Below are positions 19,586 through 62,820 of a stretch of 64,000 nucleotides of DNA, one piece after another. Each line of letters starts with the position of its first letter. Position 1 is the stretch's first letter. Both the position numbers and the translations under genes were made by a program. The DNA is taken from assembly GCA_963753345.1 (NCBI GenBank), contig CAVWBU010000016.1:32001-96000 (forward strand). The letters are read 5' to 3'. The notes below the pieces were generated by a model. The model ran no database searches, had not been told where the DNA came from, and was given only the letters and a program-made list of their open reading frames with translations. Source of the stretch: an uncultured Fibrobacterota bacterium. GTDB lineage: Bacteria; Fibrobacterota; Chitinivibrionia; Chitinivibrionales; FEN-1185.

Positions 19586-21911
19586 TCACCCGCCCTTTTT
19601 GCGCACCTTGTAGGCGTTTTCCACCATCGACTTGAAGAGCTTGAAGTCATTTGCCGGCATGAAGCGCTTGAGCGGCCGTTCCGCGCGCTTGAACTCGGCA
19701 TAGGCCGCTTCAATCTTGTTGTCCCGCATGAGCCCGTTGATCTTGTCTATCGCCTCCTGCTCCTTCGATTCGGCCGGCGCGGTCTGGCCGGCTGCAACAG
19801 CCGGCGCGGCCTGCTTCTGCTGCACCTCGACCGCAAGCTGCATCACGGCCTGTTCGAGGGTGTTGAACACCTGCACGTCCACGAATTGGGCAATGAATTT
19901 CCTCTCGTCTTTGAATTTGTCAAGCGCTTCCGCCGCCTGTTTCCGGTCAAGCATGTCGTACAACTCCATCACCTCGTCCTGCGCCTTCTTCTGGTTTTCC
20001 CTGAGGCCGGCAAGCGACACCTGCACCGATGCCGGCGGCGGCGGGGCTTTCTCCTTCTCTTGAGGGGCAACGGCCGGCGGCGGAACGACCGGTTGCGGCG
20101 CCGGCTGGGATTGCGCTTTCGCCTGCGCAGAGGCCCTTTTCTGCGCTTCGATTTCGTCCCTGCGCTCCTTCTCCGCCTGTGCGACGAGTTGCTGCTGCCG
20201 CTCCTGTTCGGTGCGGGCAGCGCGGTCCTTCTCCATCTGCTGGGCCTGCTCCCTGATCCTGCGATCTTCGTCGGCCTTTGCCTGCGCCTGCTGCTTTGTT
20301 GCCGCGTCGATGCTGTCCCTGCGTGCCTTCTCCTGCTGGGCAGCGAGCTGTTTTTTACGGTCCTGCTCCTGCTTTAATGCATTGATGCTGTCTCTGCGCG
20401 CCTGTTCCTGCCGGGCGGCAAACTGCTTTTTGCGGTCCTGTTCCTGCTTTGCCGCGTCGAGGCTGTCCTTGCGCGCCTTCTCCTCCTGCGCAGCGAGCAG
20501 CTTTTTGCGGTCCCGCTCTTCCCGTGCGACACGCTCCTGCTGCTGCTGCACCGTCTCCTGCTGACGCCGCAGTTCCTCTTCCCCTTTTGCCATGCTGTTC
20601 CTGTCTGCTCCTGGCCGCCTCTACGCTGTCCTTCTTCGCATTCTCCTGCTGTAAAGCAGCCTCGCGGCGGCGTTCCTCCTCTGCGCGTGCGACGCGGTCC
20701 TTCTCCTGCTGCAATTCCTCCTGCTGATGCCTGCGCTGCTCCTCGACCTTTGCCTGTACCTCCTGCTTGCCCTTTATTGCATCGAGGCTGTCCTTGCGCA
20801 CCTTTTCCTGCTGGGCCGCAAGCTCCTTCTGGCGTTCCTGCTCGGCGCGGGCGGCACGGTCCTTTTCCATCTGCTGCGCCTGCTGCTGGCGCCTGCGTTC
20901 TTCATCAACCTTGCCCTGCTGTTCCTGCTGTTGCTTCTTGACCGCATCAAGGCTGTCCTTGTGAGCCTTTTCCTGGCGGGCAAGCTCCTGTCTTCGCCTG
21001 TCTTCTTCCTGTTTCGCCTGCAGATCCTGTTGTCGCTTCTGCGTTTCGAGGCTGTCCTTATGCGCCTTTTCCTTCATGGCCGATTCCAGTTTGAGGCGAT
21101 CTTCTTCGGCCTTGCGTTTTTTTTCCTCCTCGGCCTTGACTTTTGCCAAACGTTCTTCTTCCTTCTTCTTTTCCTTCTGTTCCTTCTCCAGCCTCGCCCG
21201 ATCGGCCTTTTCCTTCTGCTCCAGCTCTTTTTTCGCCTTTGCCTCCTGAACGTTCTTGATGCTGTCCGCATGGGACTGAACGATTCTCTGCGCCGTCCTG
21301 AGGATGTAGGGATCGGTGGACGGGTCAGGCTGCTGTCCGCTCTCCAGGGCCTTCAGCGTGCGCGCCAGCGCGTCCCGCTCCCGCGCCTGCTGAATTGCGG
21401 GCGCTTCCAGGAGGATCTTCTTCTCCACGGCTTCGATCTTGACTTCAGAAACGCCGAAGCCGCGAAGATCGTTTTTTGTGTACTGCAGCGCCGAATCGAC
21501 GCCCTGCGACTGGAGAATATCGAGGCTGATCTTGACAAGAGAGTCTTCCCTGGACCCCAGGGCGGCCTTCACCTTGTCGATCCTGGATTTGAGGGCAACC
21601 GCCTCTTCCTGCGACATGCCGCTCTTGATCTGCTTGAACTGGTAGTCGAGCAAGTCGATCTCGCTCCGCGCACTCTGCAGCTTGTTCTGGTCGAGATACC
21701 CGTTCGCATCGGCGAAGTTCTTCTCTATTTTCGCCTTCTGCTTGTTCGCGTCCGACTTGAACAGCTCCTTCTGTTCCGCGGCCTGGCACGATCCCGACGA
21801 TAAAACTTGCGTTGCAAGAAATCCGACGGGCGCCGCGCAGAGACACAGGAAAAACAAGGCGAAGGCTGAAAATCCCGTCTTCTTCCCGCCCGCACCATGG
21901 TGGGTTTTCAT
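19586..21911 (-). CDS. Exported long coiled-coil (E/Q/K/R-rich) repeat protein, split by a frameshift at 20581-20588
   Basis: GGAGG RBS; N-terminal hydrophobic segment; repeats of KDSL/RDSI continue across ORFs 20355-21911 and 19586-20593. Confidence 0.7.
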
Positions 21912-25947: not shown

Positions 25948-26040
25948 AAATATAACGCGCGATTGATGTGAGTTGTTATTGATGGCGATAAATAACCTCT
26001 AAGGGGGAAGTTCAGCCCGTCTCAAAACTCAAGAGAAGAT

Positions 26041-26213
26041 TTGGGCGCCCCGCCGAAGACGGCGGCGGTTCTCCTTCCGGTCTCGGCCAAGGCCTCGGGC
26101 TGCCACGGCCCTATTCCTTTTGTAGAGACGCAGCGGCGCTGCGTCTCTACAAAAGGCGGGTCCGGGCAGCATCGTGCTCCAGCACGACCTCCAGTCGCCC
26201 CTGGCGCGTGGCA
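26041..26213 (-). repeat. Structured intergenic repeat family A, copy 1, containing a GTAG REP-type palindrome
   Basis: Minus strand TGCCACGCGCCAGG...GACTGGAGGTC...GCCCGGACCCG...ATAGGGCCGTGGC.GCCCGAGGCC...GGGGCGCCCAA, collinear with 29138-29336. Confidence 0.8.
26116..26156. repeat. REP-like perfect palindrome
   Basis: CCTTTTGTAGAGACGCAGCG-G-CGCTGCGTCTCTACAAAAGG, 20-bp arms with a GTAG...CTAC core. Confidence 0.75.
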
Positions 26214-26323
26214 TCAGGATTGTTTCACAATCAATACATACCTGACCAATAAGAATTCATTGCGCTACTTTATTATTATTCGGGAGGGCGCAAAAAATAA
26301 TTCTTGACAGAATATATTTCTGT

Positions 26324-26508
26324 TGCCGCGCGTTAGGTGGACCGGAGGGTGAGCTAGAGCGAATTGCCGACTGACCGCGGCCCGAAGGGCCCTCGCGGCA
26401 GGCGGCAACGAGGCGGACAGCCGAGCCCGCAGGGACGACGCCTCGAAGCACCCGAAGGGGTGGACCGACCCTCGCCTTTGTCTTGACAAAGGCGAGGGGG
26501 ACGCCCAA
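26324..26508 (+). repeat. Structured intergenic repeat family A, copy 2
   Basis: TGCCGCGCGTTAGG...GAAGCACCCGAAGGGGTGGACCG...hairpin...ACGCCCAA shared with 29138-29336. Confidence 0.8.
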
Positions 26509-26569
26509 GCGTTTTTTCTCTTTTATGAGGTCTGCCAACATATCCACGAAATCAATTATTTTTATCTTC

Positions 26570-27067
26570 ATGTTCGACTATAACAAGAACGAATTTCTGC
26601 GGGAAATCTTCTTCAAGACCAACGTCCTGCGGAAACCCATTTCCGGCATTGTGTCGGGATACCACGAACTCCCCTACATCCTTGTCGCGCCCGACGAGGC
26701 CAACGAATCGGCTTCAATCGAAATCAACGGCAAGATCAATGTCTCGCCGAAATTCATCGTCACGCCGGGGATGCTGGGAGAAACCTTCGGCGAGGTGTTC
26801 GACCCGGAAACCTTTGACAAGGAACTGCAAGGCAGGCTGTTCTCGTTTGCCTACGGCAGCAAAAAAAACGTGAAGGTCGAAAGCGAGTATTTCAACATAA
26901 AAAACGTGGAGGAAAAACCCGAGGATCACCTGACCAGGGTCAACGACCGGCTTGCCGTCCAGGAGAACATCAGGACCGGCCTCATCTTCGGCCCGCGGTT
27001 CAAGTATTACCCGGTTTCGATTGACAAATTCATCAATGAGATCGTTGACAGAGAATTCAGGGTGTAA
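26570..27067 (+). CDS. Hypothetical protein
   Basis: 165-aa ORF with host-like codon usage; no family recognised. Confidence 0.75.
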   Translation: MFDYNKNEFLREIFFKTNVLRKPISGIVSGYHELPYILVAPDEANESASIEINGKINVSPKFIVTPGMLGETFGEVFDPETFDKELQGRLFSFAYGSKKNVKVESEYFNIKNVEEKPEDHLTRVNDRLAVQENIRTGLIFGPRFKYYPVSIDKFINEIVDREFRV

Positions 27068-27096
27068 TCCGACAAGTCAATAAAAGGATTTCAAGC

Positions 27097-27245
27097 GGGG
27101 GAAGTATCCCCCTCACTCCGGCCCGGCCGCGCCACTTCACAAATCAGTATCCTGAATTGCGCGTCCGGTCCTCCGCTACCCCCTCCAGGGTGACCCCCAA
27201 GTGGAAGCAGCTGCCGAATCAAACACCTGTGCGGGGGCACCCGAG
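27097..27245 (+). repeat. Structured intergenic repeat family B, copy 1
   Basis: GGGGGAAGT.TCCCCCTC...CGCTACCCCCTCC.GGGTG..CCCCAAGTGG...GAATCAAACACC.GTG.GGGGGCACCCGAG shared with 28879-29028. Confidence 0.8.
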
Positions 27246-27310
27246 AAAAGCGTTGAACCGGTTTCCACCATTACTCTATTTCACTTTATAATTTCACAAG
27301 GGAATTAACG

Positions 27311-27751
27311 ATGTGGCTTTTCGGATTCTACCGTTTGTACATTTCCCTCTGCGCCGGCATCGCATGCTGGTTCCTTATCGCACGATCAATCTGGCTTTCG
27401 ATGCTTGCCGCGCTGGCGGTGCGAGCCGTCTGGTTCGCGGTCGAAATGATTGTTGAGAGAATGGCGGTTGAAAACGACTTCAAACGCCATGTTTACTCAT
27501 TCAAACAGCAGCTCGGCCCCTACGGCATCCGCGTTGCCAACCAGGCGGAAAAGGATTTCAGGACAAAAAAAAGCCTCGCTGAAGTCTTTGTCTCGGATTC
27601 CGCGAGGCTTGCGAAAAACATCGACCAGCTCAGGATGCTGGATACTCTGTTCAAAGCGGGAATGCGCCCCGATAATGACGCATGGCTGCTTCACGACTGC
27701 AAACTCAAGTACGGAACGTACCGCATTGAGCAGGACAAGGGCGGCCGCTAA
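27311..27751 (+). CDS. Hypothetical membrane protein
   Basis: AAGGGA RBS; two N-terminal hydrophobic segments and a soluble C-terminus. Confidence 0.7.
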   Translation: MWLFGFYRLYISLCAGIACWFLIARSIWLSMLAALAVRAVWFAVEMIVERMAVENDFKRHVYSFKQQLGPYGIRVANQAEKDFRTKKSLAEVFVSDSARLAKNIDQLRMLDTLFKAGMRPDNDAWLLHDCKLKYGTYRIEQDKGGR

Positions 27752-27754
27752 AAG

Positions 27755-28747
27755 CTATTTCGAAAACATCGAAAGGTTTTCTTTGTACGACGTATCCGCG
27801 TACACGATCTTCGAAACCGACATCAGGCTGTCCACGAAGTGCTTCACCACGTCGTTCTGTTTCCTGAGCGTGAGCACTTTCCGTATCTGGTCCCTTGCCT
27901 TTTCGAAGGGCTGCGGCGGCAGCATCTCCTCCCCCGTCTTCTTTGCAATGTGAAACCCCGCCTCGGTCTCGAAGACGGCGCTCACCTCGTTCGGCTTGAG
28001 GGACGTGGCGACCACGTCGAATTCCTTCTTGAGATCCCCCTTCTTGAACCATCCGATGTCGCCGCCCGCCTGCGCCGTTGACGGGTCCTGCGAGTACTTC
28101 TTCGCGGCGGCGGCAAAATCCTTCCCGGCCTTGACTTCCGCAAGTACCTGAGCCGCCTTGTCGGCCGCAGCCTTCTTCTGCGCCGGCGTGGCGTCCTTCT
28201 TGACGGTAATAAGAATCTGGCTCACCCTGAACCGCTTTTCCGATGCGAATTGCGCCTGGTTCGCGTCGTAATATTCCTTGCATGACTTGTCGGGCACAGT
28301 GTCCGAAGACCTGCCGAGCGACTTGATGAGGGTGTCGATAAGCAGCCCGTCACGCACCTGGTTGCGCATGTCCTGCCTGGTTTGTCCCATTTTGGCAAGT
28401 TCCCTGTCCAGCGTTGCGGAATCGGGAAACTGTTTCTTGATGCCGTCGAGCGTCTGCTCCAACCGCGCCGGGTCGCAGGCGACTTTGCGCTTCTTGGCTT
28501 CCTGAAGCACCACTTCGTTGGCGACAAGCTGGCGCGCGACGTTTTTCTTTATCTCCGGCGGGATCCCTTCCAAGGCTTTCTGGGGGAAGGCAGCGGCCAT
28601 CTGCTGCTTGTACAGCTCGACGACTTTGTCGATGTTATCTTTCTTCAGCCAGACGCCGTTCACGCATATCACGCCGTCCTTGGGCTTGTTTTCACCGGCG
28701 CAGCAAACGAGGAGCGCAAGCAGCAGCAGGGGCAGAGACTTTTTCAT
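27755..28747 (-). CDS. PpiC-type peptidyl-prolyl isomerase (PrsA/SurA-like lipoprotein foldase)
   Basis: Lipoprotein-like signal; VSQILI; FAAAAKKYSQD; GGDIGWF; ETEAGFHI. Confidence 0.9.
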   Translation of the reverse strand: MKKSLPLLLLALLVCCAGENKPKDGVICVNGVWLKKDNIDKVVELYKQQMAAAFPQKALEGIPPEIKKNVARQLVANEVVLQEAKKRKVACDPARLEQTLDGIKKQFPDSATLDRELAKMGQTRQDMRNQVRDGLLIDTLIKSLGRSSDTVPDKSCKEYYDANQAQFASEKRFRVSQILITVKKDATPAQKKAAADKAAQVLAEVKAGKDFAAAAKKYSQDPSTAQAGGDIGWFKKGDLKKEFDVVATSLKPNEVSAVFETEAGFHIAKKTGEEMLPPQPFEKARDQIRKVLTLRKQNDVVKHFVDSLMSVSKIVYADTSYKENLSMFSK

Positions 28748-28878
28748 GGGAAAACCTTTCGGGATGAACGTTGATTTTGCAGGATGTAAAGGAAAATGAG
28801 AGTAAGGAGAGAAAATATATAATGGATGATTGGGGGATTTGTCTAAAATGAAAAGCAAGAGCAAGAAATTTATCTATA

Positions 28879-29028
28879 GGGGGAAGTTTCCCCCTCGCTT
28901 CAGCCCGGCGCGCTTCCATATATTTTTGCTTATTGTCAACCGCGCCCCAGTCTTTCGCTACCCCCTCCTGGGTGCACCCCAAGTGGGGCCGGTTGCAAGA
29001 ATCAAACACCCGTGTGGGGGCACCCGAG
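28879..29028 (+). repeat. Structured intergenic repeat family B, copy 2
   Basis: Collinear with 27097-27245, with a variable AT-rich internal loop. Confidence 0.8.
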
Positions 29029-29137
29029 TAGAGTAGTTGAAGAGTTGAAACGTTGAATAGTTTCAAGAAGGAAAATTGATCCTTTAAATGAGGTTTCGAG
29101 CCAGCGCAATAGTCAACTTGACCGAATAGATTTCTTT

Positions 29138-29336
29138 TGCCGCGCGTTAGGCAGGACTGGAGGTCCCGCTATAGCGGGATGCCGCCCGGACCCGGCCCTG
29201 TGGGCCATAGGGCCGTGGCGGCCCGAGGCCGAAGGCCGACGACCCTTGGAAGCACCCGAAGGGGTGGACCGGAAGGACGGCCGACCCAAAAAGAAAGGCG
29301 CAAAATCATGCGCCTTTCTTTTTGGGGAACGCCCAA
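29138..29336 (+). repeat. Structured intergenic repeat family A, copy 3; its final hairpin may also terminate the convergent gene
   Basis: Same termini as copies 1 and 2; ends in CCAAAAAGAAAGGCGCA-AAATCA-TGCGCCTTTCTTTTTGG. Confidence 0.8.
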
Positions 29337-32774: not shown

Positions 32775-32848
32775 GGGCGTATGGCTCAGCTGGTTAAAGC
32801 GCTGCGTTCACATCGCAGAGATCCCTGGTTCGAATCCAGGTGCGCCCA
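32775..32848 (+). tRNA. tRNA-Val(CAC), CCA not encoded
   Basis: Acceptor stem GGGCGTA/TGCGCCC; D arm GCTCAGCTGGTTAAAGC; anticodon arm CTGCG-TTCACAT-CGCAG; T arm CCTGG-TTCGAAT-CCAGG. Confidence 0.96.
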
Positions 32849-56429: not shown

Positions 56430-59400
56430 TTACCAGTCGGTGTTGGCGTCCTGCTTTCCGGTTGTCGTCTTGCCGCCCGAGGCCTTCTGCAAAACGAAAT
56501 TGTAAAGACTCTTGATCTTTTCGTCGTCCTGCTTGAGCTTTTCCGCTTTTTCAAGCAGCGGCAGCGCATCCGTGAGCCTGTCGGTCTTGACGTATCCCCT
56601 GGCCAGCTGGTACATGTAATCGGGCGTATTGGCCTTCAGCGCGTTGGCCATCTCCAGAAACACCATCGCGTCATTGAAGAGACGCCTGTTGAGCAGGGTG
56701 ATGCCGATGTCCTCGCACGCGTCGGGATTGGTGGCGTCGTGTTGGATGTACGTCTGATACGCTTCCGTCTCAAGCTTCGGTTTCCCGAGTTTCCCGTATA
56801 TCTTGCCGATCTCGATCCACATGAGCGGGAGCGTGTCCTTGAGCGAGAGCCCTTTCTTGAGCAACATCGCCGCTTTTTCGAGATTCGCGGGCTGTTTCGC
56901 ATAAAGCAAGCCGGCGCCGAGGTAATTCCGGTAGTCCTTCGGATTCTTCGCCAGGTTCTCCTCGTAAATCCTGGCCGCGGAGGCCGGGTTGAGCGATTCC
57001 TCGATCTGGGCCCTTCGATAGGAAGCCTCGGGGTCGTTCACGTCCGGCAGCTTGACATAGGCTGCGTAGGCGCTTGCGGCGTTTGCATTGTCCCCTGTCT
57101 TTTCGTAGGAATCGGCGAGCATCCGAAGCGTCACGGCGTTGTGCGGGTTCTTCGCCTTGCCGCTCTTGCTCAGGCCATGCAGCCTCTCAAAAATGTCCGC
57201 GCTTTTCCTGTAGTCCTTGGCATAGTAGTAGGCGCGCCCGTAAAGGAAAAGAAATTCCACGTCCTCACCCTTCTCCTTCACCGCCTTGTTAAGCAGCTTG
57301 ATCGTCTCTTCGTAGTTCTTCTTCTTGAACTCGTCTTCGGCCACCAGCAGCGCGATATCGGGGTCGTTGGTGGTGGATTTGGCAAGGTATTTCTTGTATG
57401 CCTCGATCGCGTCATCCCGCTTTTGCTCTTTCATGTAAAGATCGCCAAGGACCTTGCATTCCTGGGTCGCGTCCGGGTTTATGGCGACCACCTGCTGATA
57501 TGAAACGATGGCGTCGGCGGTGTTGCCGCTCCTCAGCTGGCAGCGCGCAAGCGACGACAGGAGGGCGGTGTTCTTCTGGTCGAGCGACAGCGCCTTATTG
57601 TAGCTGGCCATCGCCTTGGGGTAGAGCATCTTCTTCTCGTAGATCGAACCGAGCGTCGCATAGGTGGACGCATCGGCCTCGCCCGAGGCCACCATCTTGG
57701 TGAGCACCGCGACCACCTCTTCGGGAGTTCCCCGGGCCACCACAAGCTCGGCATACCTTTTGTAAACTCCCTTGACGGACGGGTCTATCGACAGGGCCGT
57801 GCGGTACGCGAGGAAGGCGCCGCTCAGATCCTTCTGGTCGTAGAGATAGTCGCCCAGGTCCTTCTGGGCGTCCGCGTCGTGCGGGTTGATGGCGATGTAC
57901 TTCTTGAGGTAGGCTATCGCGGCTTCTTTTTCGTTGTTGTGCATGGCGATGTCGTACAGGCTCTTGTACGCGTCCGCGTTGGCGGGTTCAATGGCCGCGA
58001 CCTGCCGCAGCAGTTCCTTTGCCTTGTCGTAATCCTTTTTCTGGAGACAGGCCTGCGCATAGGCGTTAAGGAAGGAAACCTTTCTCGCATCTTCGCCCGC
58101 GACCATGCCGAAATACCGCACCGCATCGTCGTAGTTCTTGTTTTTAAACGCGTCCTGGCCCACAAAGACGGCGATCGCATAGTCTTTGGGCTGTTTTTCC
58201 AGGTACTTTTTGTAAACGGTCACCGCCTGGTCCTGTTTCTTCTGCTGCAGGTACATCTCGCCGAGCAGTTTGTACACCCGCATCTCCTGCGGATTGACGG
58301 CAATGACCTGCTCGTACGTGACGGCCGCCTCCGTGGTGTTGCCGGTCTTCACCTGGCAGGCGCCGAGCGCCATGAGCAGTGCGGTGTTCTTCGGATCGGA
58401 CGCAAGCGCCTTCTGGAACATCTGGATGGCCTGCGGGTACAGACCCTGCTTCTCGTAGACAATGCCCTGAGCGTTGTACATGGCGGCATCGGCCTCGCCC
58501 GCGGCAATCGCCCCCTTGACGGCTGCGGAAACCTCCGCGGAAAGCCCCTGCTCCGTGGCCATTTCAAAGTATCGTTTGTAAATTCCCTTGATGGTCGGAT
58601 CGAGCGCCAGCGCCTTCTTGTAGGCGGCGAGCGCACCGGGGAATTCCTTCCTCTCGTACAGAAGATCGCCCAGGTTCTTCTGCGCCGTTGCATCCGACGG
58701 CTTGAGAGCAAGGTATTTCCTGAGGTATCCCGCAGCGGCGGTTCTCTGGCTCGAGTCCTGCCACGCGATGGTGTACAGGATCCTGTAAACGTCCGGATTG
58801 TTCGGGGTGAGGATGGCGAGCTGGGCATACAGGTCTTTCGCCTTGTCGTAGTCCTTTTTCTGGTAGCACGAATACGCGTACATGGAAAGATAGGCGGACG
58901 TCTTTGTTTCGGTGCCCGCCACCATGCCGAGATATTTCGCGGCCTCGTCGTAGTTCTTGTTCGTGTACGCGTACTCGCCGATGGTGTACGCCACGGCATA
59001 GTCCTTAGGCTGTTTGTCAAGATATTTCTTGTACGTGGCGATCGCGAGGTCCTTCTTGTTCTGCGCAAGGTACATGTCGCCGAGCAACTTGTTCACGCGG
59101 GCGTCCTGGGGGCTTAGCGCGAGCACCTGTTCGTAGGTGACCGATGCCTCGGCGGAATTGCCGGCTTTCACCTGGCACGAAGCAAGCGCCATCAAAACCG
59201 CCGTGTTCTTGGGGTCCGTCGCAAGCGATTTCTGGAACATCTGGATGGCCTTGGCATACTGGGCTTCACGCTGGTAGGTGTTTCCCTGCGACGCGTACAT
59301 CCCCGCGTCGGCCTCGCCCGCGTTGATCGCGCCGGAAAGCGCCGCGCTGATGTCGGTCTGCACGCCGAGGGCGGTCGCGAGCTCGAAATACCTTTTGTAA

Positions 59401-62144
59401 ATTCCTTTGATGGACGGGTCGAGCGCCAGCGCCTTGCGGTATGCCGCAAGCGCGCCGGAATTTTCCTTCTGCGCATAGAGAAGGTCGCCCAGGCTTTTCT
59501 GTGCCGATGCATCGGACGGCTTGAGCGCAAGATATTTGCGCAGATACCCCGACGCCTCGGCGCCCTGCGAGGAGTCCTGCTGCGCAATGGTGTACAGGAG
59601 CTTGAACACTTCCGGATTGCCCGGCGTGAGGACAGCGAGCTGGTTGAGCGTGGCGGAGGCTTTCTTGTAGTTCTTTGCGAAGTAGCACGCCTGACCATAC
59701 TGCATGAGAAAACCCGTACGCTTGGTGTCTTCGCCGCTCACCATGGCAAAGTACTTTGCGGCCTCGTCGTAATTCTTCTGCTTGAAGGCGTACGATCCCA
59801 CGGCCAGCGCCACCTTGGAATCGTCTTTCCGCTTGTCAAGATACCTCTTGTAAATGGCCGCCGCCTCGGCCTCCTTGTTCTGCCTGGTGTACAGGTCGCC
59901 GAGAGCCTTGAGCTCGTCGACGGCCGCGGGATTGAGCGCGACCACCTGCTCGTAGGTGACCACCGCCGCGTCAATGGCGCCCGTTTTCGCCTGGCACTGC
60001 GCCAGACCGGCAAGCACCGGAACGTCCTTGGGATTCTTTGCAATGGCGCTCTGAAACAGATCTATCGCCTTGGTGCAGTTCCCCTGCCGCTGGTACGAAA
60101 GCGCGAGCGTCGCATACATGTTCGCATCGGCCTCGCCGGCGGCAACGGCACCGGCAAGGGCGGCGGTGAGCTCTTCACGCGGACCGCGCGTCATGATGAT
60201 TTCGGCGTACTGTTTGTAAAACCCCTTGATCGTCGGATCAAGCTTGATGGCGGCGTGGAACGCTGCGAGCGCCGCGTCGAAGTTCTTGACATCGTAGTAC
60301 AGGAGCCCGAGGTTCCGCTGCGCCACCGGGTCTGCGGCATTGAACGTGATGTACTTCTTGAGATACGTCGCCGCCGAGGCCTTGTCGCCGCTGTTGAGCG
60401 TTATCTCGTACAGGCTCTTGAACACCTCGGGGTTCTGCGGGGTGAGCGCGGAAAGCTCCTTGTAAATGTCGAACGCCGCCTTGTAGTCCCGCTGGGAAAG
60501 TTCGTACGCGCCCAGGCGCAGGCGCGACTCAACGTTGGTCTTGTCGAGCTCGATCACTTTCTTGTCGGCATAGGCCATATTGACCATGTCGTTGAGCTTT
60601 TTATAGCAGTAGGCAAGCTGTTTCCAGTACTCGACCTCGAACGGCTTTTTTCCCACGAGGACATCAAGCTGTTCCTTTGCCTCCTTGTATTTGTCGCTTC
60701 TCAGGTACCCCTTCGAAAGCACCATCCGCGGCTCCATGAGCGTGGGGTCGAGCCTGACTGCGGATTCCGCCGCGTCAATGGCCTTGTCCCACTGTTCGAG
60801 CGCGGACGCGGCCTGGGCGATGCCCGCCGCAGCCTTCACGTTTCTGTCGATGAGATAGCTCTTTTCGTAGTATTTCAGCGCGTCCGCGTACTTCTTCGCC
60901 TTGAGGTTGTAGTCGCCGAGCGTGATGAATATCTTGGGATCGTTGGGACTTATCGCAATTATTTTTTCGTACACTTTATTCGCCTTGTCGGGCATGCCGC
61001 TCTTCGTGTAGAAATCGGCAAGGTGCGCATATGCCTCGACGTTCTTGGTGTCGGTCGCGACGACCTTTTCCATGCACGCAATGGCCCTGGCGAAGTTGCC
61101 CGTACCGCTGTACGCATCTGCGAGCAGAAACTGAATGTCGGGAACCCGTGTTCCATCGGAATCCGCCGCTGCGATAAAGCGAAAATGGACAAGCGCGGAC
61201 TCGAAGTTTTTCTTTCCAAGGTCGTAGTTTCCCGCCTTGAGGTGCGACGTGATGGCCTCCGGGGACTTGTCACCCGCAAAGGCGTCCGCGGCCGCACGGT
61301 AGGCAGTAAGCGCGCTTTCTGCGCTGCCGGTTTTTTCCTGCGAAACCGCGCGGTAATACTGGTCCATCGCTTCAAGTTTTATCTTGCTGGCGATTTTCTC
61401 AAATTCATTCGCCGCGGCGAGGAACTTGTCCTTGAGGTAATATGCGCGCGCAAGCGCAAGGTTGGCGGCATACAGATTCGGGTTCCGGGCAATGGCGTCC
61501 TTGAGGTAGTAAATGGCCGAATCGAGCCGGTTCGCTTCAACGAGCGACCTGCCGATTCTGTATGCGTCGTCGGCGTTGGGCTGGGAAGCATAGGCAACCT
61601 TGAGCAGCGGTATTGCCTTCTTGTATTCCTGTTGCTGCCAGTAAATCTTGGCCAGTCCCCTGCTCGCGGCCGCGTTTGACGGATCTGATTGGATCACTCG
61701 TTCGAGCGCTTCCTTAGCCTCGTCCGTTTTCTTGAGCGCTATGCATGCCTTGGCGTATTCCCAGCTTGCCTCACCCGTGGCCTGAAGGTCCATGGCCTTT
61801 TTCGCGAACATCGCGGCGTTGTCGGGCTGGTTCAAATTATTGTAGACACGCGCCACGCCAAGCTGGGCGTCGTAGCTCTTGACGTCCATGCGCGACGCGA
61901 CCAGAAAACAGGCGAGCGCCTTTTCGGTGGTCCCGAGTTCCTCGTTGGCGATGCCGACCTTTACCCACACGTCTGCGGTGCGCACGTTGGACGGCAGCTT
62001 CGAGTCTGCATAGGCAATGGCGTCCTGGTACTTCTTCGACCGCACGAGCTGGTCGAGCGTAGAATCCGCAAATGCGGCAAACGCGACCGCCCCGATTCCG
62101 AATGAAAGGAAAAAAACGCGAATACTCCCCCGGCGTATCTTCAT
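56430..62144 (-). CDS. Giant exported TPR protein (1904 aa)
   Basis: GGGAGAG RBS; signal peptide; TPR motifs throughout; four ~273-aa super-repeats. Confidence 0.9.
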   Translation of the reverse strand: MKIRRGSIRVFFLSFGIGAVAFAAFADSTLDQLVRSKKYQDAIAYADSKLPSNVRTADVWVKVGIANEELGTTEKALACFLVASRMDVKSYDAQLGVARVYNNLNQPDNAAMFAKKAMDLQATGEASWEYAKACIALKKTDEAKEALERVIQSDPSNAAASRGLAKIYWQQQEYKKAIPLLKVAYASQPNADDAYRIGRSLVEANRLDSAIYYLKDAIARNPNLYAANLALARAYYLKDKFLAAANEFEKIASKIKLEAMDQYYRAVSQEKTGSAESALTAYRAAADAFAGDKSPEAITSHLKAGNYDLGKKNFESALVHFRFIAAADSDGTRVPDIQFLLADAYSGTGNFARAIACMEKVVATDTKNVEAYAHLADFYTKSGMPDKANKVYEKIIAISPNDPKIFITLGDYNLKAKKYADALKYYEKSYLIDRNVKAAAGIAQAASALEQWDKAIDAAESAVRLDPTLMEPRMVLSKGYLRSDKYKEAKEQLDVLVGKKPFEVEYWKQLAYCYKKLNDMVNMAYADKKVIELDKTNVESRLRLGAYELSQRDYKAAFDIYKELSALTPQNPEVFKSLYEITLNSGDKASAATYLKKYITFNAADPVAQRNLGLLYYDVKNFDAALAAFHAAIKLDPTIKGFYKQYAEIIMTRGPREELTAALAGAVAAGEADANMYATLALSYQRQGNCTKAIDLFQSAIAKNPKDVPVLAGLAQCQAKTGAIDAAVVTYEQVVALNPAAVDELKALGDLYTRQNKEAEAAAIYKRYLDKRKDDSKVALAVGSYAFKQKNYDEAAKYFAMVSGEDTKRTGFLMQYGQACYFAKNYKKASATLNQLAVLTPGNPEVFKLLYTIAQQDSSQGAEASGYLRKYLALKPSDASAQKSLGDLLYAQKENSGALAAYRKALALDPSIKGIYKRYFELATALGVQTDISAALSGAINAGEADAGMYASQGNTYQREAQYAKAIQMFQKSLATDPKNTAVLMALASCQVKAGNSAEASVTYEQVLALSPQDARVNKLLGDMYLAQNKKDLAIATYKKYLDKQPKDYAVAYTIGEYAYTNKNYDEAAKYLGMVAGTETKTSAYLSMYAYSCYQKKDYDKAKDLYAQLAILTPNNPDVYRILYTIAWQDSSQRTAAAGYLRKYLALKPSDATAQKNLGDLLYERKEFPGALAAYKKALALDPTIKGIYKRYFEMATEQGLSAEVSAAVKGAIAAGEADAAMYNAQGIVYEKQGLYPQAIQMFQKALASDPKNTALLMALGACQVKTGNTTEAAVTYEQVIAVNPQEMRVYKLLGEMYLQQKKQDQAVTVYKKYLEKQPKDYAIAVFVGQDAFKNKNYDDAVRYFGMVAGEDARKVSFLNAYAQACLQKKDYDKAKELLRQVAAIEPANADAYKSLYDIAMHNNEKEAAIAYLKKYIAINPHDADAQKDLGDYLYDQKDLSGAFLAYRTALSIDPSVKGVYKRYAELVVARGTPEEVVAVLTKMVASGEADASTYATLGSIYEKKMLYPKAMASYNKALSLDQKNTALLSSLARCQLRSGNTADAIVSYQQVVAINPDATQECKVLGDLYMKEQKRDDAIEAYKKYLAKSTTNDPDIALLVAEDEFKKKNYEETIKLLNKAVKEKGEDVEFLFLYGRAYYYAKDYRKSADIFERLHGLSKSGKAKNPHNAVTLRMLADSYEKTGDNANAASAYAAYVKLPDVNDPEASYRRAQIEESLNPASAARIYEENLAKNPKDYRNYLGAGLLYAKQPANLEKAAMLLKKGLSLKDTLPLMWIEIGKIYGKLGKPKLETEAYQTYIQHDATNPDACEDIGITLLNRRLFNDAMVFLEMANALKANTPDYMYQLARGYVKTDRLTDALPLLEKAEKLKQDDEKIKSLYNFVLQKASGGKTTTGKQDANTDW

Positions 62145-62360: not shown

Positions 62361-62742
62361 GGAAAGAAGGTCGGGCAATCGCTCCTATTCATCGGAGAGG
62401 AAAGTCCGGGCACCACAGGACAGGATACCTTGCGTCAAGCAAGGGACTCCGGGAAACCGGGGTACGGAAAGTGTCACAGAGACCAGACCGCCCTTCGCGC
62501 GGAGCAATCCGTGCGGGGAGTGAGATGTGAAAAGGCGGGGTAAGAGCCCACCGCGCTTCCTGGTAACAGGGAGCGGCTGAAAAACCCTATCCGGTGCAAG
62601 ACCAAGCATGAAGGAGGCGCCCGTAAGGGCGCGGAAGCTGTCCGTTTCCAATTCCTTCGGGTAGGTCGCTCAATGCCCAGGTGAAAGCCCGGGCCAGACA
62701 AATGATTGCTAAAACAGAACCCGGCTTACGGACCTTCTTTCC
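62361..62742 (+). ncRNA. rnpB: RNase P RNA (type A-like)
   Basis: GAGGAAAGTCCGGGC; GGAAAGTGTCACAGA; GGTAAGAGCCCACC; AACAGAACCCGGCTTAC; P1 GGAAAGAAGGTC/GACCTTCTTTCC; followed by a T tract. Confidence 0.97.
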
Positions 62743-62820
62743 TTTTTTTTCCGGCCGGCAGCGCCCGCAGAGCTCGTTTTCGATGACATCTTTTTTTCAC
62801 GGCGGCCGCCCAATCACCCA

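What the first reader, a model, noticed from the sequence alone, without database searches (positions are those of the whole stretch)
26041..29336. Family A: three copies of a modular structured element with compensatory base changes
Seen: copies at 26041-26213 (-), 26324-26508 (+) and 29138-29336 (+) share termini TGCCRCGCGYYAGG and CGCCCAA. Copies 1 and 3 covary in their stems: CGTGCT-GG-AGCACG vs CCCGCT-AT-AGCGGG, and GCTGCC/GGCAGC vs GCCGCC/GGCGGC. Single-stranded linkers (GACTGGAGGT, CCGGACCCG, GACCGGAAGGA) are kept while the terminal hairpins are swapped completely. Copies 2 and 3 share GAAGCACCCGAAGGGGTGGACCG and a 35-nt 5' block with 3 mismatches (26303-26337 vs 29117-29151). Copies 1 and 2 sit back-to-back 110 nt apart. 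Inference: selection on ssDNA/RNA structure, meaning an unannotated ncRNA or a non-autonomous mobile element.
Basis: partly seen in the sequence, partly recalled or inferred. Interest (0 to 1): 0.72.

Follow-up and report, generated by a model that had tools for sequence, protein, structure and literature searches.

The report
Folded DNA repeat related to Flavo-1
The three elements are copies of a repeat found about 400 times between the genes of this bacterium; it has the same ends as the unexplained 'Flavo-1 RNA', likely folds as single-stranded DNA rather than RNA, and likely spreads by new copies overwriting old ones with the help of an enzyme that is still unidentified.

Summary
The loops look like DNA, not RNA: 234 of 1297 are cGNAg triloops, against 6 GNRA and 2 UNCG. 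The ends match those of Flavo-1 in its authors' own flanked alignment, but the Rfam model does not score A. So A is a long variant of Flavo-1, not a model member. In a close relative, 20 of 23 syntenic sites hold an arm in both genomes, yet the copy at the same site is never the nearest relative. Copies are therefore likely replaced in place. There is no target duplication, and no linked mover was found among RAYT, IS91, Rpn and reverse transcriptase genes. The scan has reported this family before, in this genome and in others. Verdict: a real BIME-like, likely single-stranded-DNA repeat; a new variant of a known kind.

The parts
26003..26040 (-). Chimeric 3' tail of copy 1: an A tail fused to what looks like the 3' end of a B module. 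It is the outer boundary of the doublet.
   Evidence: 22 matches to this tail in the genome, most directly behind an A end. Loose ends pile up at 26003. G001 has a B arm starting at the same boundary.
26041..26213 (-). Family A copy 1 (CC/GG closing-stem type)
26122..26150 (.). GTAG...CTAC REP-type palindrome forming the swapped hairpin tip of copy 1
   Evidence: Same GTAGAGACGC start as subclass-2.4 REPs in PMC6006769 Table S1 and as the palindrome inside this genome's C32 RAYT-like gene. 17 of 17 such palindromes lie in A/B units.
26214..26323 (.). A/A linker of conserved length, with two different leaders (CACAAT/TGAC side and TGGCGCAA/TTGAC side)
   Evidence: 110-115 nt in 19 of 28 parsed A/A doublets, mean pairwise identity 56% among 18 distinct linkers
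26324..26508 (+). Family A copy 2 (TT type), with the inserted GAAGCACCCGAAGGGGTG module at about 26434-26467
27097..27245 (-). Solo module B; its purine-rich folded strand is the minus strand
   Evidence: B profile hit 27101-27256
28879..29026 (-). Module B, left arm of the B/A doublet
   Evidence: loose ends at 28879
29027..29137 (.). B/A linker: short GTTGAA-type tandem repeats plus the A leader
   Evidence: B/A linkers range from 71 to 430 nt
29138..29336 (+). Family A copy 3 (TT/AA type). Predicted zipper strands at 29154-29163 and 29269-29277; closing stem GCGTT/AACGC followed by CCA.
   Evidence: top hit of a Flavo-type covariance model in the window, E 0.017

Best explanation
Family A is an intergenic repeat of about 140-200 nt, present about 409 times in this genome, that shares its ends with Flavo-1, likely folds as single-stranded DNA, and likely spreads without a gene of its own by being copied into sites that already hold a copy. 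Shown: copy number; back-to-back A/A and B/A doublets; covarying helices; DNA-type loops; sites that stay occupied while their content changes between relatives; stacked older 3' ends; hairpin tips taken from other palindrome families. Inferred: the purine-rich strand folds when exposed during replication, more often on the lagging-strand template for B/A doublets. The fold is a basal three-way junction, a GA-rich zipper stem and a four-way junction. A trans-acting nicking and strand-transfer enzyme recognises the outer frame, and an arm or a whole doublet is pasted over an older one, sometimes with 12-25 nt of donor tail; inner hairpins are exchanged the same way. My best guess for the enzyme is a Y1/HUH (RAYT-type) protein, at about 0.3; it is not shown.
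For: Copy number and doublets: 409 A and 284 B arms, 2.5% of the genome. 240 close back-to-back pairs; only 1 of 246 head-to-head neighbour pairs lies within 400 nt. Fold: closing dinucleotides are TT/AA in 124 and CC/GG in 49 of 199 parsed copies (of 257); the pair between the two GA motifs is T-A 115, C-G 75, T-G 8, C-A 1. In 17 canonical copies, 14 of 35 pairs change on both sides and 0 of 500 shuffles reach this. DNA signature: 234 of 1297 loops are cGNAg against 26 of 2306 in shuffles; GNRA 6, UNCG 2; reverse strand UNCG 14. GNA mini-hairpins and G-A-bracketed zippers are described as DNA motifs (PMC13037366; PMC11014236). Mobility: the PPIase-HD gap is empty in G003, G004 and G005; G002 has a different A copy plus a 2.4-kb insert there. 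Replacement in place: of 23 syntenic sites, 9 have the same arms, 11 different arms and 3 none; in 9 of 9 comparable pairs the orthologous A ranks 13th to 260th of about 265. 18 of 265 copies have a second terminus within 90 nt, against 1.2% of random windows. Module linkage follows the fold rather than the order along the sequence: base type to 3' tip V=0.99, base type to middle modules V=0.01-0.17. Replication polarity of B/A doublets is 97:53, p=4e-4. Integration by recombination with a target that already carries a repeat is the published BIME model (PMC3333891).
Against: No mover is linked. PF01797 finds nothing in this genome. RAYT-like genes exist, but only 1 of 4 has an A arm within 1.5 kb, against 18% of all called genes lying next to a unit. 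They also occur in G003, which has no A, and were not found in G001 (73% complete), which has many. One of 32 RAYT/Y1 loci from relatives has an A profile hit. The scaffold motifs are absent from the published RAYT-flank table. No copy has a neighbour at 99% identity or more (median 92%), so there is no recent burst, and plain gene conversion could give part of the pattern. The covariation rests on few pair types (16 against 22.9 in shuffles), so on few independent events. Solo A arms show no strand polarity (53:49). Energy models prefer the same strand with RNA and with DNA parameters and do not recover the full outer stem. GA-rich internal loops also occur in RNA (recalled). The syntenic sites were chosen because the relative has an arm there.
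Confidence: 0.55

Rival explanations
1. The doublet is a host-used DNA signal, for example a primer-assembly or replication-restart site or a platform for nucleoid proteins. It is kept at its sites by selection and homogenised only by ordinary gene conversion.
For: 20 of 23 syntenic sites stay occupied. The A/A linker keeps its length, 110-115 nt in 19 of 28, at 56% identity. Doublets have replication polarity. Mini-hairpins occur in phage and plasmid priming signals (PMC13037366). No mover gene was found.
Against: G003 (99% complete, same genus) has none, and the strict 3' pattern is in only 6 of 296 phylum genomes. Sites are empty in more distant relatives. Among 60 phage terminase-like loci, 8 carry a Flavo-type element at one spot while close relatives lack it, which looks like repeated landing rather than need.
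Confidence: 0.2
2. The element works as RNA: a family of small RNAs or 3'-UTR structures, or a retro-element whose closing stem plus CCA acts as a tRNA-like end for reverse transcription.
For: Strong covariation. A stem followed by CCA and a T-rich tail (the CCA count is partly built into my end pattern). Sharp 3' ends and ragged 5' ends. Rfam lists Flavo-1 as an sRNA.
Against: RNA-type GNRA and UNCG loops are nearly absent. The TTGAC and TAGATT motifs of the leader are 4 nt apart, while host tRNA promoters show about 17-18 nt (read by eye). No reverse transcriptase was found in this 94% complete genome. In Flavobacterium psychrophilum, Flavo-1 hits lie sense or antisense alike and many are outside transcribed regions (PMC9723704).
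Confidence: 0.15
3. The arms are recombination sites of an integron-like system (attC-like) or the ends of a MITE or IS91-type element.
For: The A ends resemble the GTTRRRY and RYYYAAC core sites (pattern recalled). The genome encodes integron-type tyrosine recombinases and one IS91-type transposase. A few doublet-like pairs enclose a gene.
Against: The core-like motifs are in the reverse order to attC (sequence; definition recalled). Arms flank ordinary core genes rather than cassette arrays. No target duplication: 4-mers 22 against 18.8 +/- 3.4 expected, 8-mers 0, in 132 doublets. 0 of 30 Y2 transposase loci carry the scaffold.
Confidence: 0.1

Closest known systems
Flavo-1 RNA motif (Rfam RF01705; Weinberg et al. 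2010, PMC2864571)
   Same: Same outer frame: GCGT(T/G)AGG ... CCGACC-hairpin-GG(N)ACGCCC, seen in 7 of 7 flanked rows read from the authors' alignment (one with a degenerate CCGACC), with GTG/CAC as a third compensated closing stem. A terminal pattern taken from family A retrieves real Flavo-1: 5 of 20 metagenome loci and 1 of 20 viral loci tested pass the Rfam cut-off. Intermediate forms exist in other families of this order. Flavo-type elements also carry GNA triloops.
   Different: Family A scores nothing with the Rfam model. A profile of 52 Flavo-type sequences has 0 hits in this genome. A is longer, has a different inner stem and a four-way junction, and is paired with module B or with a second A across a linker. 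The Rfam model omits the 3' hairpin and closing stem.
REP/BIME/REPIN with RAYT (TnpA-REP) (PMC3333891, PMC6006769)
   Same: High-copy intergenic mosaic repeats, inverted doublets with a linker, enrichment in convergent gaps (51 of 191 B/A units against 412 of 2443 background gaps), content that varies at a locus, and ssDNA hairpins.
   Different: Arms are 140-200 nt multibranch folds, not 21-65 nt hairpins with a GTAG/GTGG foot. No RAYT gene was found flanked by intact arms on both sides. True GTAG REPs occur here only as passengers inside the units.
Single-strand initiation signals and mini-hairpin DNA (phage G4 origin, ssiA, N4 promoter; PMC13037366)
   Same: GNA-capped mini-hairpins on one strand; two signals on opposite strands either side of an AT-rich stretch.
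   Different: Hundreds of chromosomal copies; no origin or primase link was tested or shown.

Membership tests
Flavo-1 (RF01705) | Covariance-model score at or above 42 bits | tested here: not met
   No hit in the window. None at E<=1 in the genome, with 150 of 456 candidates scored. None in 5 loci.
Flavo-1 (RF01705) | Outer termini and basal three-way junction as in the authors' flanked rows | tested here: met
Flavo-1 (RF01705) | Inner GGGAT...AGCCC stem sequence | tested here: not met
   A has other inner stems; a Flavo-type profile has 0 hits in the genome
Flavo-1 (RF01705) | Detected by an extended model that includes the closing stem | tested here: inconclusive
   Copy 3 E 0.017; copies 1 and 2 E about 0.9; 12 of 17 canonical copies E 0.02-0.46; other-family forms E 4e-9 to 0.08. 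Partly circular, because the training loci were picked by a terminal pattern.
REP/BIME with RAYT | High-copy intergenic inverted doublets joined by a linker | tested here: met
REP/BIME with RAYT | [quoted passage not shown] | tested here: not met
   Not at the A ends; only in passenger tips
REP/BIME with RAYT | Cognate RAYT gene flanked by the repeats | tested here: inconclusive
   1 of 4 own RAYT-like loci has an arm beside it and one more has terminus remnants by eye; 1 of 32 loci from relatives; presence does not track copy number
REP/BIME with RAYT | ssDNA cleavage and strand transfer by the enzyme | not testable with these tools
   needs purified protein
MITE (DDE-type) | Target-site duplication and matching terminal inverted repeats | tested here: not met
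   (3-mers slightly high, 52 against 40 +/- 4.5; 4-8-mers at chance level); B/A doublets have unlike ends
IS91/ISCR end | Lies at the end of a Y2 transposase element | tested here: not met
   0 of 30 loci; no arm within 2 kb of the region holding the genome's own Y2 gene
Integron attC | RYYYAAC...GTTRRRY order, in cassette arrays (definition recalled) | tested here: not met
   Reverse order in the sequence; neighbours are core genes
Non-coding RNA gene | Own promoter and RNA-type loops | tested here: not met
Non-coding RNA gene | Discrete transcript | not testable with these tools
   no RNA holder listed

The most novel reading that the evidence does not exclude
Flavo-1 and family A are one cross-phylum class of single-stranded-DNA 'homing' elements that has been misfiled as an RNA. 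A conserved three-way-junction frame is recognised by an as yet undescribed nicking or priming activity, which rewrites existing copies in place, swaps nested hairpin cartridges and lands repeatedly at the same sites, also in phages.
Probability: 0.3. Interest if true: 0.75.

Novelty: new variant of a known kind. Interest (0 to 1): 0.5.

Why it matters
If right, an orphan Rfam 'sRNA' of Bacteroidota is the short form of a widespread folded-DNA repeat, and its real boundaries lie outside the Rfam model. That turns 'what does Flavo-1 do' into testable questions: DNA versus RNA probing, and which protein cuts or primes at the frame. It would also be a natural use of the (GNA)2 zipper, known from synthetic and satellite DNA, and a bacterial repeat whose sites persist while their content is replaced. 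If the mover is simply a RAYT, it is an unusually elaborate BIME and of moderate interest.

Tried and rejected
Rfam: no family at the gathering score; only chance hits by E-value. Plasmid and phage collections: only a 40-nt terminator-like stretch at E 0.2-0.7, and no match. Expression: no RNA holder listed. Read laying showed no contig joined across an empty site among the joints listed (lists were cut). Y1 by Pfam: none in the genome, but tblastn found RAYT-like genes that Pfam missed, so that blank was not used. Rpn/YhgA nucleases: next to two diverged members, but in 0 of 8 genomes of this family and with the scaffold in 1 of 30 loci; rejected. Reverse transcriptase: none. IS91-type Y2: not linked. 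GIY-YIG and four-helix-bundle genes: single adjacencies only. A gene inside an arm or linker as the autonomous form: none of transposase type by eye. Paralogue clusters next to units: mostly secreted or housekeeping proteins by eye; integrase-like 3 of 6. Neighbours in metagenomes: 94 of 133 scanned (long ones and duplicates left out), no mobile-enzyme family recurs. One-strand T-to-C 'mutation shadow' from earlier notes: not seen at third codon positions here. Leader as sigma-70, sigma-54, IHF or dif site: spacing or core does not fit (consensus recalled, compared by eye). My terminator control for loops was small and uninformative (97 loops). The Saprospira repeat paper was not found.
Full report
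Observation. Rfam finds nothing there at the gathering score, and only chance hits by E-value. The three copies belong to a genome-wide family. 397 start motifs were found, 265 of them with a matching end. A profile of canonical copies gives 426 hits and 0 in the reversed genome, which merge to 409 A arms. A second module, B, has 284 arms; together they cover 2.5% of the genome. 21 of 693 arms overlap a gene called by my own crude caller.

Architecture. Arms sit back-to-back: 115 B/A, 93 A/B, 30 A/A and 2 B/B doublets, with 141 solo A and 72 solo B. Only 1 of 246 head-to-head neighbour pairs lies within 400 nt. The window holds an A/A doublet (26003-26508), a solo B (27097-27245) and a B/A doublet (28879-29336). 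The 110-nt gap between copies 1 and 2 is a conserved part: A/A linkers are 110-115 nt in 19 of 28 parsed cases, at 56% mean identity among 18 distinct ones, whereas B/A linkers run from 71 to 430 nt. Units are enriched in convergent gaps (51 of 191 B/A units against 412 of 2443 background gaps). In B/A doublets the folded A strand lies on the G-rich strand 97 to 53 times (p=4e-4; 45 to 25 in gaps with symmetric genes, p=0.02), while solo A arms show no bias (53 to 49). Reading the G-rich strand as the lagging-strand template is standard inference from GC skew in a draft assembly.

Fold. Mutual information on 104 distinct canonical copies picks long-range pairs. The 5' GCG-TT or GCG-CC pairs with the 3' AA-CGC or GG-CGC: 124 and 49 of 199 parsed copies, out of 257. 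On 17 hand-picked canonical copies, 88.7% of cells pair, 14 of 35 pairs change on both sides, and 0 of 500 shuffles reach this. Two helices pair poorly because of alignment shifts, and the number of pair types is low (16 against 22.9), so the independent events are few. Standard energy models do not recover the whole outer stem; the zipper is therefore inferred from covariation.

DNA or RNA. Among 1297 strict hairpins in 248 distinct copies, 234 are cGNAg triloops (26 of 2306 in shuffles), 6 GNRA and 2 UNCG; the reverse strand has 14 UNCG. GCGNAGC and GCGNNAGC mini-hairpins are described as very stable in DNA, and r(GCGAAAGC) melts at 39 C against 76.5 C for the DNA (PMC13037366, passages). 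G-A-bracketed intercalated zippers are described for satellite DNA (PMC11014236, passages). The A leader has TTGAC and TAGATT only 4 nt apart, unlike the spacing of about 17-18 nt upstream of host tRNAs (by eye). No RNA data were available. The DNA reading is thus likely, not shown.

Relation to Flavo-1. The Rfam model does not score A, and a profile of 52 Flavo-type sequences has 0 hits here. However, the seven flanked rows I read from the authors' alignment (PMC2864571, supplement file 4, part 327) all run from GCGT(T/G)A(G/A)G to a hairpin and ACGCCC, beyond the modelled part, with GTG/CAC as a third compensated closing stem. A pattern of A's termini gave 122 or more metagenome stretches (80 fetched; 71 distinct elements: 52 Flavo-type, 14 A-type, 5 other). 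It also gave 56 viral loci, about 20 of them real by eye. 5 of 20 metagenome loci and 1 of 20 viral loci tested pass the Flavo-1 cut-off; 0 of a further 20 did. An extended model from 29 Flavo-type rows ranks copy 3 first in the window (E 0.017) and copies 1 and 2 weakly (E about 0.9), and scores forms from other families of this order at E 4e-9 to 0.08; this test is partly circular. Family A thus shares Flavo-1's frame but is not a member by the model. Five papers in the library name Flavo-1. In the passages read from four of them none gives a function; one reports hits sense and antisense alike and often untranscribed (PMC9723704; others). Searches for a printed description of this repeat found none.

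Distribution and turnover. Pattern counts are 161 here, 94 in G001, 30, 22 and 28 in G002, G004 and G005, and 0 in G003. A looser 3' pattern hits 18 of 81 order genomes, several by chance. At the window's own sites, the PPIase-HD gap is about 210 nt and empty in G003, G004 and G005. G001 has a B arm where copy 1 stands, starting at the same outer boundary, and a different A where copy 2 stands. Across 23 syntenic sites in a close relative (flanks 81-95% identical; sites chosen for having an arm there), 9 have the same arms, 11 have different or flipped arms and 3 have none. In 9 of 9 comparable pairs the orthologous A is not the nearest relative (rank 13-260 of about 265). One 'empty' site keeps both outer ends with the interior gone (L055). 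18 of 265 copies are followed within 90 nt by the 3' half of a second terminus, against 1.2% of random windows. The tail of copy 1 is an A tail fused to a B-like end and has 22 matches in the genome. In run X3 one contig differs from the window at 9 positions and 2 insertions in the 17 nt just outside 26003, with one other listed difference in about 300 nt; a single contig is only a hint of recent change. Within the genome there are 142 module combinations in 265 copies. Nearest-neighbour identity is 92% at the median and never 99%, and linkage follows the fold rather than the linear order. There is no target duplication.

Mover. Not found. RAYT-like genes exist here although Pfam misses them (NCBIfam NF047646 below its cut-off). 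Their GTAG palindromes supply tips such as that of copy 1, and 17 of 17 such palindromes lie in A/B units, which cover 4.4% of the genome. That shows these sites collect Y1-associated palindromes, but RAYT presence does not track family A and adjacency is at background level. Rpn, reverse transcriptase, IS91-type and integrase leads failed or stayed open. No enzyme family recurs among 94 of 133 metagenome neighbours.

Mechanism and verdict. The best fit is a non-autonomous, ssDNA-folding mosaic repeat that is copied over older copies, as in the BIME model in which an excised unit recombines with a target that already carries a repeat (PMC3333891, passages; REP and RAYT subclasses from PMC6006769, passages and Table S1 rows). 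Confidence is 0.55 overall and about 0.3 for a Y1/HUH enzyme. A host-used DNA signal homogenised by gene conversion (0.2), an RNA-level element (0.15) and an attC-, MITE- or IS91-like site (0.1) remain. It is a new variant of a known kind; interest 0.5. The scan has noted the same family before, in this genome and in others.

Noticed in passing
L140, L157, L159 and L401-L464 (phage contigs): A Flavo-type element sits antisense just behind the stop of a terminase-like gene (weak match to solved terminases, E 0.08) in 8 of 60 loci searched, about 5 lineages; the three first seen are only 24-25% identical. Relatives at 47-59% identity lack it. All 8 model hits are at this spot, which suggests a repeated landing site.
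   Followed up: partly
L146:604-691, L151, L155: Flavo-type element in microvirus contigs between the pilot and Rep genes, on the strand opposite to the genes, that is, not the packaged strand.
   Followed up: partly
window 27097-27245 and 28879-29026: Module B (284 arms) also shows a GGA/GGA zipper by eye on its purine-rich strand. It often ends in a hairpin plus ACCA (48 of 225) and mostly lies antisense to neighbouring genes. It was not tested against Rfam outside the window.
   Followed up: partly
G000:C35:162200-163000 (L088): An internally shortened RAYT-like gene lies between a reversed A 3' end and a forward A 3' end remnant, in the place where a doublet has its linker (by eye).
   Followed up: partly
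G000 doublet linkers: Longer linkers collect other palindromic repeats (CCCCTCTCC...GGAGAGGGG, GCCCGGGGCAACGCCCCGGG, 7-8-nt tandem tracts). The GCCCGGGG type also flanks a Y1 gene in G004 (L038).
   Followed up: partly
L026:7900-10200 (G002): At the site of copy 3, G002 carries a 605-aa secreted-looking protein gene with an A copy at its right end; possible cargo.
   Followed up: no
genes beside solo arms: Genes on the 5' side of solo arms have lower third-position GC (about 0.71-0.74) than those on the 3' side (about 0.77), hinting that the ragged end borders foreign DNA.
   Followed up: no
G000:C26:284774-286900 (L366): An IS91-type Y2 transposase with an attC-like hairpin upstream (by eye) and another transposase-like gene next to it.
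   Followed up: no
L110, L113: Two diverged members in other families lie just downstream of Rpn/YhgA-type genes.
   Followed up: yes
window 62363-62744 and 32775-32848: RNase P RNA (class A) and a tRNA.
   Followed up: no
window 57300-61500 and 20100-21100: Coding repeats with an 819-nt period, and with 75/162-nt periods.
   Followed up: no
G000 contigs C44/C45/C46, C29/C30, C10/C39, C4/C16: Near-identical duplicated stretches with the same flanks, so copy counts may be inflated by a few per cent.
   Followed up: no
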